Shown here piece by piece: positions 54,625 to 58,483 of a stretch of DNA of 64,000 bases. Numbering within the stretch: the first letter of the stretch is position 1; each line of letters begins with the position of its first letter. Source of the stretch: Octopus vulgaris (taxonomy: Eukaryota); NCBI GenBank assembly GCA_951406725.2, contig OX597834.1, positions 27,838,001 through 27,902,000 of the forward strand, in the 5' to 3' direction. Both the position numbers and the translations under genes were made by a program. The notes under the pieces were generated by a model. That model ran no database searches. It was given only the letters and a program-made list of their open reading frames with translations, and was not told where the DNA came from.

Positions 54625-54635
<11 letters not shown>

Positions 54636-54997
54636 ATTCGAGACAAAACCACTATTTTAAAATCAAACAAGGAAAGACTTAATCAATACATAAAATTTTA
54701 ATATAAATTAAATAAACCGCCACTACAATTGTTTCTTGTCCTCTACTGACATTCTTCATAATTTGATACTGATTAGAAGATCGAAAATCCACCTGAAGAA
54801 TGTCAGTAGAGGACAAGAAACAATTGTAGTGGCGGTTTATTTAATTTATATAAAAATTTTATGTATTGATTAAGTCTTTCCTTGTTTGATTTTAAAATAG
54901 TGGTTTTGTCTCGAATTATATTATATAATATTTTACTATAAAATTGGATTTAACCCTAAATCTGATTTTTCCCTGTAATTTTGGATTCATTCCCTAA

Positions 54998-55000
<3 letters not shown>
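54625..55000. mobile_element. Inverted PLE-type terminal repeat: 134-bp arms (54625-54758/54794-54927), HHR at 54789-54832 (+)
   Basis: About one mismatch between the arms, 35-nt spacer; CCAC-CTGAAGA-A-TGTC.agtagag.GACA-A-GAAA-CAATTG-TA^GTGG. Confidence 0.85.
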
Positions 55001-55029
<29 letters not shown>

Positions 55030-55034
<5 letters not shown>

Positions 55035-56645
55035 GTAGTAGTACAGACAGAAGGGAGGAATTTCGATTATCCCCACGTGGTGAGTTGTAATGTATATAGG
55101 AAATTAAAAAAAGGAAAATACGCACACTTATATAGTTTTAATATAATTTTTAATATATCGACCGATTTCGCTATCGCTATTCATGATATTATGTTTTACT
55201 TATTTGAATATGTATTTTTTCTTAAGAAGAAATTTGGTCCATGTTGTGTGTGATGAAATTCACGAGTGAATGACTTCACAAGTAGATAAATAAAGGAAGG
55301 TAATTGGTTGTCGTTATTATTGTTATTGTTGTTGGTAAGGGATATAACTGTTCAGCTTTCGGTAATGGGTGGGGATTATATATGTGTACAAACAGAGACA
55401 AGTTTTAAAAACCTTGTTTAGTAGGGGATTTATGTACAGTGATGTAATCGTGAATTGAAATATGTAAAAAGATAAAAGTTGGTTATGCGTGCTTATTAAG
55501 ATGTGTTTTGTATTTTTCAATGAAAATTTTTTTTTATTTAAACGTTCTAGTTGAGAGATTGCGTCTTTTTACTGGTAGAAAGGGAAGACTGTGAAATTTG
55601 GTTTCATGTTACCTGCACATTTTTCTATATGTTCACTGAGAGGAATTTGTCTGTATTGCGGGAAACGGATTTGCTCCTTATGCAGAGTGGTTCTCTTTCT
55701 CAAGGTGATACTCGATTGTCTAATATAGTGGCGTCCGCAACCCGAGCAGGTTATTACATAAATTAGGTTCTCAGAGGCACAGGTCAAACTAGTTTTAATT
55801 GTGAACCTCTGTCCTTGTTTGAAAAGGAAATCCGAGCCTTCAAGCAGGTTGGGGCAGGTTCCACAGTTTGGGCGTCCACATTTTTCAACCGTTGGTTTCG
55901 TGGTTGCTTTGTAAAGCTTCGCATTTGTTAGTAGTCTCTTTAGCGATTTGTCTTGTTTCTTGCATTTGATGAGTTTGTGTGTTTTCAGGATGTCGTTCAT
56001 TTTTGGATCTCTAGTTAGTAAAGGAAGAATTTGCTCAATAGTGTTGAATGCCTCACTGTTTCTGGGGTCGTGCGTTGATATAAATAGTAATGTTTTGGTT
56101 TGAGGCGTGGTGCTATGGTCTTTTTGTTCTTAGTGTTTTTGTGTCTAATTGCTTGGCACGTTTAATTCCCTCGTCGATAAGAGAGGATGGATATTGTCTT
56201 TCAATAAGTGTTGTTTTGAGGTTTCGAAGACGAAGGTCCCGAGTTGTTCTATCAGACACTATTGTGCAGATCCTTTTTGCTAAGTTGAAAGGGATGTTTA
56301 TTTTTATGTGTTTCGGGTGGCATGAGTTAAAAAGAAGATATTGTTTTGAATCAGTAGGTTTATAATAAATGTCAGTTATGATTTCATTGTTAACTTTTTT
56401 AATCATGATGTCTAAAAATGGAAGTTGTTCTTTGTTATATTCCATTGTGAATTGAATGTGTGTCGATGTTCTCCTTCCAGATGATAAAGCAATCATCCAG
56501 GTATTGCTCCCAATTTTCTCTTATGTAGAGGTAAAATGGGTAACCATATTTCTGAAGTGATACTTCATATACGGTCAATTCAAAATAACCCATTATTAGG
56601 TTCGCAAGAACAGGAGCTGCTTTCGTCCCCATCGCAATTCCGCAT
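55030..56645 (-). mobile_element. 5'-truncated Neptune-type PLE: RT C-half, Cys linker, GIY-YIG endonuclease, 3' terminal region
   Basis: GIAMGTKAAP, YLDDCF, LPFLD, YYKPTDSKQYL...SCHP, CGRPNCGTC, NLIYVITCSGCGRHYIRQ; frameshifted; ORF ends at ~55483. Confidence 0.92.
55155..55189 (-). ncRNA. Minimal type I hammerhead with A3-U8 core variant
   Basis: ATATC-ATGAATA-GC.gata.GC-GAAA-TCGG-TC^GATAT; same strand as the Neptune ORF and ~300 nt downstream of it. Confidence 0.75.
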
Positions 56646-57384
56646 TATCTAACTATCTATCTACCTGTCTGTCTATCTATCTGTCTATCTATCAGCCTAT
56701 CTATCTTTCTATATATATATGTATAAGAATTTACGTATATTTTTGTATATATGCATGCATACATGTTATGTATACATATATGTATGTATCTGACATGAGA
56801 CTAGAATCGAGGGTGACAGTAAATATCTTTTCCCTGTCCATCCCCGCTCCGCCAGACTGCTTACACATGCGCACGCGCATACACACAATACATACATACC
56901 AATGTACAAATACGAGGAACCTCATAAAAATCAGAGAGAGAAAGAGAAAGATAGATAGACAGAAGAAAAGAAAGAGAGAAAAAAGAAAGTAAAAAGAAAG
57001 AAAGAAAGACAGAGAGAGATATATATATAGGGAAAGGGAGGGAGAGAGAGAGAGACAGGGAGAGGGGAGAAGTTGAAACATTTCAATACAAAGAAATGAC
57101 AGAGCTAGCACCGAGAAACTTGATAATAGCGACTGACACGTGAGGAAAGATGGCGGCGGTGGTGATGGTGGTATTGGTGGGTGGAGAGTAGTGAATGGAG
57201 TGGGGTGCAGCAAGCGTAAGGGTGGAGGAGTCGGGAGAGAATGACATCACTGGATGCCGGGTATTGCAGTTTTGGGAAATGTGTGTGAGGTGCTTGCGTT
57301 AACATACCCACCTTCTCTATGCTTTTTATATACACTCGTAGCGCATCAATGTGCATTTCTGAACGTGTGTGTACGTCTATGTGT

Positions 57385-58069: not shown

Positions 58070-58483
58070 GCAGTGGCTGTGTGGTAAGTAGCTTGTTTAC
58101 CAACCACATGGTTCCGGGTTCAGTCCCACTGCGTGGCATCTTGGACAAGTGTCTTCTACTATAGCCTCGGGCCGACCAAAGCCTTGTGAGTGGATTTGGT
58201 AGACGGAAACTGAAAGAAGCCCGTCGTATATATGTATATATATATATATGCGTGTGTTTGTTTGTGTGTCTGTGTTTGTCCCCCTAGCATTGCTTGACAA
58301 CCGATGCTGGTGTGTTTATGTCCCCGTTACTTAGCGGTTCGGCAAAAAGAGACCGATAGAATAAGTACTCGGCTTACAAAAGAATAAGTCCCGGGGTCGA
58401 GTTGCTCGATTAAAAAGGCGGTGCTCCAGCATGGCCGCAGTCAAATGACTGAAAAAAGTAAAAGAGTAAAAGAGTAAAGAGTA
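58070..58483 (+). mobile_element. SINE family A, full length
   Basis: Head, body and (GAGTAAAA)n tail. Confidence 0.93.

What the first reader, a model, noticed from the sequence alone, without database searches (positions are those of the whole stretch)
55155..55189. 35-nt hammerhead with compensatory A3-U8 pair in a Neptune element
The core reads AUGAAUA instead of CUGANGA. Both partners of the established C3-G8 tertiary Watson-Crick pair have changed and remain complementary. Stem I (5 bp), the 2-bp stem II, GAAA and the GUC site are intact, at the position expected for a PLE ribozyme. Standard CUGANGA searches would miss it.
Basis: partly seen in the sequence, partly recalled or inferred. 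Interest (0 to 1): 0.7.

Follow-up and report, generated by a model that had tools for sequence, protein, structure and literature searches.

The report
Swapped-core hammerhead in Neptune retroelements
A jumping-gene family with over a thousand copies in this animal genome carries a tiny hammerhead RNA motif whose usual C-G core pair is replaced by A-U, while sister families use U-A, G-C or U-G at the same spot; it likely still cuts itself slowly as a pair of copies, but cutting is untested.

Summary
Real and family-wide. The 35-nt motif (minus strand) lies in the 3' UTR of a dead, 5'-truncated Neptune-type Penelope-like element (PLE). A3/U8 is the family state: 1,076 genome matches have A3-U8 against 47 with another base opposite U8.

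Four well-supported clades of this Neptune radiation carry A3-U8, U3-A8/U3·G8, G3-C8 and mostly U3·G8. Canonical C3-G8 makes up 7 of 3,465 matches. Stem I covaries, while the flanks of three of the four clades have diverged to shuffle level.

A typical copy folds into the dimeric hammerhead in silico; this one does not.

Cleavage is untested, and one mutational scan rescued only G3-C8 (PMC9901934). Natural U3-A8 is published. I did not find natural A3-U8 or G3-C8 in the papers I could search, but the key 2017 PLE-hammerhead paper was not held. This scan had already noted A3-U8 on other DNA (another animal's PLE, a phage) and G3-C8 in this genome. Verdict: new variant of a known kind, moderate interest.

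The parts
55155..55189 (-). Minimal type I hammerhead motif: 5-bp stem I, A3-U8 core, 2-bp stem II, palindromic helix III (decayed here), GUC triplet; predicted cut between 55160 and 55159
   Evidence: Sequence; descriptor and shuffles; family; covariation
55179..55184 (-). Core positions 3-8: A3 (55184) and U8 (55179), the swapped tertiary pair
   Evidence: 1,076 A3-U8 against 47 other-U8 and 58 A3 with other-8 (hand count)
55161..55166 (-). Helix III / dimerisation hexamer; the family has the perfect palindrome, this copy has a private U at 15.2 (55165)
   Evidence: duplex energy -3.1 against -8.3 kcal/mol
55031..55500 (-). 3' UTR / pseudo-LTR of the element, ending in TAC/TA microsatellite about 116 nt after the motif (ends approximate)
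55506..56117 (-). Linker zinc finger (C-x4-C-xx-C, about 55883-55854) and GIY-YIG endonuclease with CCHH motif; the YIG motif reads YIR in this copy and the C-terminus is broken by a stop
   Evidence: Pfam GIY-YIG weak hit (E 0.045, below cut-off) on the intact sister ORF
56128..56641 (-). C-terminal part of the reverse transcriptase, in two further frames (frameshifted)
   Evidence: tblastn 62-67% to the intact sister ORF; Pfam RVT_1 E 1.7e-7 on that ORF
55031..56655 (-). Whole insertion: 5'-truncated, non-coding copy of a Neptune-type PLE between TA/TAC and TATC microsatellites
   Evidence: BLAST to longer copies L004/L209, L003/L213, L214 ends at 56655

Best explanation
This is a minimal hammerhead motif with an A3-U8 core pair in the pseudo-LTR of a Neptune-type Penelope-like retroelement, and in intact copies it likely cuts the element's RNA slowly after GUC, working as a dimer. 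Shown: the motif, its fixation in the family, its place, and joint change of positions 3 and 8 and of stem I between clades. Inferred: a partial-tandem element yields an RNA with two pLTR copies. These pair through the palindromic helix III and crossed stems I into a double hammerhead. A3-U8 would hold the ribose of nucleotide 8 in place as C3-G8 does, since the general acid is the 2'-OH and not the base. Cutting, probably helped by the element's own protein, would trim read-through RNA to unit length. The window's copy is a dead genomic relic and is predicted to dimerise poorly.
For: Counts with one fixed scaffold: U3-A8 2,041, A3-U8 1,076, C3-G8 7 and G3-C8 2. About 216 of 3,465 remain by subtraction, mostly U3·G8 (91 of the first 100 listed). 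Non-pairing combinations number 100 by hand count, about 3%, and are scattered single changes of the main families. With a looser stem II, G3-C8 is its own family (27 of the first 100 of 234 hits) with a 7-8 bp stem I. A tree of 22 endonuclease-region sequences has four clades at 100/100, each with its own 3-8 state, and A3-U8 spans two sub-clades. Stem I has changes on both sides in 7 of 7 pairs; covariation score 0.49 against 0.14 shuffled and 0.06-0.14 slid. Flanks between clades are at shuffle-level identity (9 of 10 pairs upstream) while the core persists. Cofolding two typical copies (L002) gives the double hammerhead as the minimum-energy structure. A tandem copy of the sister clade has the motif in both pLTRs (L218, L076). 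Literature: PLE minimal hammerheads cleave weakly as dimers and natural U3-A8 exists (PMC4209133; PMC3088659). A PLE hammerhead needs the 3-8 pair and its protein (PMC11167929). The general acid is the 2'-OH of nucleotide 8 (PMC6155905).
Against: No cleavage data exist. In a full double-mutant scan of one hammerhead only the G3-C8 swap rescued; other core doubles were low (PMC9901934). Young, successful subfamilies of the U3 clade lack one nucleotide at the 17/1.1 junction or carry U3·G8, and the Y3-G8 clade has no adjacent stem I, so constraint may be loose. Only 3 of 10 cofolded sequences gave a clean double hammerhead. The evidence for 3-8 pairing rests on only three changes between four clades; a random assignment of the observed bases would pair all four about 1 time in 12 (own arithmetic). 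The 100% pairing at 3-8 is by my choice of rows. Core conservation is partly built into the search patterns. I found no head-to-tail full-length A3-U8 element among the stretches examined. Copy 5' ends do not cluster at the cut site (weak test). Cleavage was dispensable for insertion in vitro in the one PLE tested.
Confidence: 0.62

Rival explanations
1. The fold is kept as a structural or protein-binding element of the PLE RNA (or cuts negligibly); the 3-8 pair is maintained for shape, not catalysis.
For: Only G3-C8 rescued in a published scan. Cleavage was not needed for insertion in vitro and no RNA ends were seen at the site in the Anolis PLE. Subfamilies missing a junction nucleotide amplified well.
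Against: The catalytic G12-A13-A14, G5 and A9 and a GUH site are kept across clades whose flanks are unalignable (partly by ascertainment). The 3-8 pair belongs to the active conformation (PMC3884650). The PLE hammerheads tested so far do cleave.
Confidence: 0.25
2. A neutral relic: an ancestral C3-G8 ribozyme decayed, and the complementary A/U is a coincidence carried along by amplification of a few master copies.
For: Few independent changes (3 between 4 clades). Copies within a family are not independent. One clade has lost a recognisable stem I.
Against: A3-U8 and G3-C8 each need two transversions from C3-G8, and both ended up paired. Stem I was rewritten several times and stayed paired. 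The flanks diverged to background but the core did not. A3-U8 persisted through two amplification waves.
Confidence: 0.1
3. A chance match to a short, relaxed motif in AT-rich repeat DNA.
For: 35 nt, monomer fold no better than shuffles, no Rfam hit.
Against: 0.03 expected per window; 3,465 against 9 in the genome; a fixed position behind the endonuclease in all four clades.
Confidence: 0.01

Closest known systems
Minimal type I hammerheads (min-HHR) of metazoan PLEs, Cervera and De la Pena 2014 (PMC4209133; read: main text parts 1-2 of 4, supplementary file 2 parts 1-2 of 3; file 1 not readable)
   Same: pLTR location, short stem I, palindromic rudimentary helix III, G10.1-C11.1, predicted dimer; reported for Neptune elements too; natural U3-A8 (about 1,300 hits in Schistosoma) and one U3·G8 row in their alignment
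   Different: The aligned representatives in the text I could read are C3-G8, U3-A8 or U3·G8, with no A3-U8 or G3-C8. Their stem II is long (3-8 bp) with an extra nucleotide after A9; here it is 2 bp with none.
Natural core variants of hammerheads, Perreault et al. 2011 (PMC3088659; passages read)
   Same: Natural 3-8 covariation (U3-A8); stem II of two base pairs is common
   Different: Mostly prokaryotic or phage ribozymes with pseudoknot support; the passages read name only U3-A8
PAc (Poseidon) hammerhead of Anolis, Frangieh et al. 2024 (PMC11167929; passages read)
   Same: PLE pLTR hammerhead; engineered C3G and G8C kill cleavage and the double mutant partly restores it; needs the element's protein
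   Different: Poseidon clade, canonical core overlapping the ORF start; the swap is engineered, not natural
Small PLE-associated hammerhead variants that cleave as dimers, Lunse et al. 2017; engineered 3-8 swaps, Przybilski and Hammann 2007 (neither held; titles seen in reference lists; content recalled)
   Same: Recalled: very many short-helix-III variants near PLEs cleave as dimers; any Watson-Crick 3-8 pair keeps some activity in two tertiary-stabilised ribozymes
   Different: I could not check whether Lunse et al. already list A3-U8 or G3-C8 members; the engineered tests were in ribozymes with loop-loop contacts, which this motif lacks

Membership tests
Minimal type I hammerhead of PLEs | Conserved core U4 G5 A6 N7 A9, G12 A13 A14, A15.1-U16.1, H17 | tested here: met
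   Sequence; N7 varies A/U and N17 C/A/U among families
Minimal type I hammerhead of PLEs | Literal CUGANGA (C3, G8) | tested here: not met
   A3 and U8 in the family; no Rfam hammerhead hit
Minimal type I hammerhead of PLEs | Base pair between positions 3 and 8 | tested here: met
   About 97% of 3,465 matches pair (Watson-Crick or wobble); clade-level joint change; only three independent changes
Minimal type I hammerhead of PLEs | Stems I and II with covariation, G10.1-C11.1 | tested here: met
   stem I 7 of 7 pairs with double changes; G10.1-C11.1 in 26 of 26 rows (fixed by the pattern)
Minimal type I hammerhead of PLEs | Palindromic helix III allowing a dimer | tested here: met
   Met for the family (L002 cofolds as a double hammerhead); weakened in the window copy
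Minimal type I hammerhead of PLEs | Site-specific self-cleavage | not testable with these tools
   Only contigs were available; the 5'-end test was uninformative
Neptune clade of EN+ PLEs | RT followed by a C-terminal GIY-YIG endonuclease with CCHH motif | tested here: met
   (the Pfam GIY-YIG hit is below cut-off; motifs read directly)
Neptune clade of EN+ PLEs | CX2-5CxxC linker zinc finger (shared with Nematis; PMC8557442) | tested here: met
   C-x4-C-xx-C at about 55883-55854
Neptune clade of EN+ PLEs | Partial tandem / inverted 5'-truncated arrangement, microsatellite targets | tested here: met
   Tandem plus inverted copy in L218 (sister clade), inverted pairs in the A3-U8 family, TA tracts at 3' ends
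Neptune clade of EN+ PLEs | RT phylogeny with reference Neptune rather than Nematis elements | not tested
   No named reference PLE sequences were on hand; the tree holds only this genome's copies

The most novel reading that the evidence does not exclude
One retroelement radiation has sampled all four Watson-Crick pairs and the U·G wobble at the hammerhead's active-site 3-8 pair, with the canonical C-G nearly lost, and all forms cleave as 35-nt dimers without loop-loop contacts because the element's protein chaperones them; the base at 17 tends to avoid pairing with base 3. It would be a first functional natural A3-U8 (and G3-C8) hammerhead and would mean CUGANGA-based surveys miss over 99% of this kind of ribozyme in this genome.
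Probability: 0.35. Interest if true: 0.6.

Novelty: new variant of a known kind. Interest (0 to 1): 0.42.

Why it matters
It gives natural, phylogenetically resolved support for the 3-8 tertiary pair beyond the published U3-A8 case, and a ready series of natural sequences (A-U, U-A, G-C, U·G, C-G on one scaffold) for testing how much the pair's identity matters in the smallest hammerheads. In practice, only 7 of 3,465 matches to this scaffold have CUGANGA, so statements that an element 'lacks a hammerhead', and counts made with the standard descriptor, can be badly off. It does not change the picture of PLE biology unless cleavage is shown to matter.

Tried and rejected
Rfam scan of 54900-56700: no hammerhead family at E up to 10. 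Pfam on the two window ORF pieces: 0 families; identity came from an intact sister ORF.

Monomer folding is no better than shuffles, so it is uninformative for a dimer-type motif. A DNA search meant to collect G3-C8 relatives returned a different repeat inserted next to the motif. A very loose G3-C8 pattern had a high background (251 against 108 control); only its recurrent forms were followed.

Sequencing runs: no RNA holder listed. The 7 different runs laid were contigs, which cannot show ends, strand or level.

Test for copies starting at the predicted cut: none within 4 nt among 68 A3-U8 and 47 U3-A8 segments, but the loci had mostly been chosen for an intact motif. Search for a head-to-tail full-length A3-U8 element in 11 long stretches plus L078 and L079: only inverted pairs, single copies or local duplications. 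The protein tree held two chimeric rows (L040, L188: another family's copy upstream) and was replaced by the 22-row DNA tree. In that tree L088 (C3-U8) and L165 (G3-U8) are labelled by family majority.

Apparent A3·G8 hits with a longer stem II are canonical C3-G8 motifs read out of register (L162, L177).

Literature: 10 searches gave no paper naming a natural A3-U8 or G3-C8 hammerhead. Lunse 2017, Przybilski and Hammann 2007, Nelson and Uhlenbeck 2008 (two papers), Weinberg 2015, Scott 2013 and Lee and York 2008 were not held, so absence from print is not established.

Full report
Observation. A descriptor that allows any pair at 3-8 and demands at least four Watson-Crick pairs in stem I finds this motif and one other in the window, against 0.03 per shuffled window in 100 shuffles. 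Rfam does not see it, and as a monomer it folds no better than shuffles, which is usual for dimer-type minimal hammerheads.

Host element. The motif lies about 320 nt behind the endonuclease region and about 116 nt ahead of the TAC/TA tract that ends a 1.6-kb insertion (about 55031-56655). The insertion holds the end of a reverse transcriptase, a C-x4-C-xx-C linker and a GIY-YIG endonuclease with CCHH motif, in three frames, with YIG changed to YIR: a 5'-truncated dead copy. An intact sister ORF hits Pfam RVT_1 (E 1.7e-7) and weakly GIY-YIG. The linker finger, C-terminal endonuclease and microsatellite targets match the Neptune (or Nematis) description in PMC8557442 (passages); no reference tree was built. 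The genome G000 is 2.8 Gb; that it is a cephalopod is my inference.

Family state. Of the 30 closest loci from a DNA search, 29 matched the motif search; 28 have A3/U8 and one A3/C8. The family-typical core has 326 exact genomic matches. With stem II loop, N7 and helix III loop free, A3-U8 has 1,076 matches and any other base opposite U8 has 47. Public contigs of three other coded organisms cover the motif. No change at positions 3 or 8 appears among the best-supported differences listed, though the tables are cut. The window copy alone has U at 15.2: 28 of 28 others have C, as does over 99% of contig depth in four runs. This drops the helix III self-duplex from -8.3 to -3.1 kcal/mol. Two typical copies cofold into the double hammerhead as the minimum-energy structure; two window copies do not.

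Covariation across clades. The scaffold with positions 3, 7 and 8 free has 3,465 matches against 9 for the reversed control. U3-A8 accounts for 2,041, A3-U8 for 1,076, C3-G8 for 7 and G3-C8 for 2. About 216 remain by subtraction and are mostly U3·G8 (91 of the first 100). G3·U8 numbers 23, and non-pairing combinations total 100 (hand counts); these look like single changes in decayed copies. Relaxing stem II reveals a separate G3-C8 family (27 of the first 100 of 234 hits) with a 7-8 bp stem I. All these families sit behind the same kind of endonuclease, mostly at 110-320 nt. A tree of 22 chosen endonuclease-region sequences gives four clades at 100/100: A3-U8 (two sub-clades), U3-A8 with a young U3·G8 offshoot, G3-C8, and a clade that is mostly U3·G8 with a few C3-G8 (unrooted, so the order of changes is unknown). 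On 26 chosen motifs, stem I has double-sided changes in 7 of 7 pairs, and the covariation score is 0.49 against 0.14 for shuffles and at most 0.14 for slid controls. The 26 of 26 pairing at 3-8 there follows from my choice of rows. Between clades the 120 nt upstream are at shuffle-level identity in 9 of 10 comparisons, the exception being the two A3-U8 sub-clades. So the motif has been kept while its surroundings were rewritten. The limits are that only three independent changes at 3-8 are seen and that the patterns fix most core letters.

Mechanism. In L218 and L076 (U3-A8 clade) a full ORF is flanked by two motif copies in the same direction, the upstream one about 210 nt ahead of the start codon. 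This is the partial tandem that would put two copies on one RNA; I found no such arrangement for the A3-U8 family in the stretches examined. By analogy with PMC4209133 (monomer inactive, dimers weakly active) and PMC11167929 (needs the 3-8 pair and the protein), two copies would pair through the palindrome and cut after C17. The base at 8 can change because its 2'-OH, not the base, is the proposed general acid (PMC6155905). All of this is inferred. Against it, a full double-mutant scan of one hammerhead rescued only G3-C8 (PMC9901934, passages). Cleavage was dispensable for insertion in vitro. Subfamilies lacking one junction nucleotide amplified well. Only 3 of 10 cofolds were clean double hammerheads. 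And copy ends do not cluster at the cut (weak test). I put slow, possibly protein-helped cleavage at about 0.6, a non-cutting structural role at 0.25 and a relic at 0.1.

Comparison with what is known. Natural U3-A8 is in PMC3088659 (passages) and, for PLEs, in PMC4209133, whose supplementary alignment shows C3-G8, U3-A8 and one U3·G8 but no A3-U8 or G3-C8 in the text I could read (file 1 unreadable). Ten full-text searches found no natural A3-U8, but Lunse 2017 and the engineered-swap papers were not held; what I say of them is recalled. I also saw passages of PMC6765202, PMC3884650, PMC6257768 and PMC7229834, and part 1 of 5 of bioRxiv 10.64898/2026.07.22.740005; none added a natural A3-U8 case. 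Earlier notes of this scan report A3-U8 in another animal's PLE and in a phage, and G3-C8 in this genome. These are unchecked AI notes, though I found the G3-C8 family independently.

Verdict. A real, family-wide, probably selected natural variant of a known PLE ribozyme. The more informative finding is the full set of 3-8 pairings within one radiation, with the canonical pair almost absent. New variant of a known kind; interest 0.42.

Noticed in passing
window 54789-54832 (+), within inverted arms 54625-54758 / 54794-54927: A second minimal hammerhead with canonical C3-G8 (C3 at 54793), 4-bp stems I and II and a palindromic helix III loop, lacking the usual G10.1-C11.1; it sits in a short inverted pair between TA tracts, like the 3' end of another PLE family.
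   Followed up: partly
G000, e.g. L066, L187-L200, L031, L076: Young subfamilies of the U3 clade lack one nucleotide at the 17/1.1 junction, and one of them also has U3·G8; they amplified to many copies, often as inverted pairs.
   Followed up: partly
G000 families: N17 mostly avoids pairing with N3: C17 with A3, and A17 with G3 (25 of 27 listed G3-C8 hits). The youngest U3-A8 subfamily breaks this with A17, which is predicted to pair with U3.
   Followed up: partly
L129, L139, L221-L236: G3-C8 Neptune family with a 7-8 bp stem I and a stem II of one pair plus a possible bulged second pair.
   Followed up: yes
L092, L097, L237-L240: The Y3-G8 clade has no stem I next to the core; it may pair further upstream or be degenerate.
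   Followed up: no
L162, L177, L229: Other canonical C3-G8 minimal hammerheads with a longer stem II (L162, L177 with an extra nucleotide after A9), from families not linked here to an ORF.
   Followed up: no
window about 58075-58480: A SINE-like insertion with a tRNA-like head; identification recalled, not tested.
   Followed up: no
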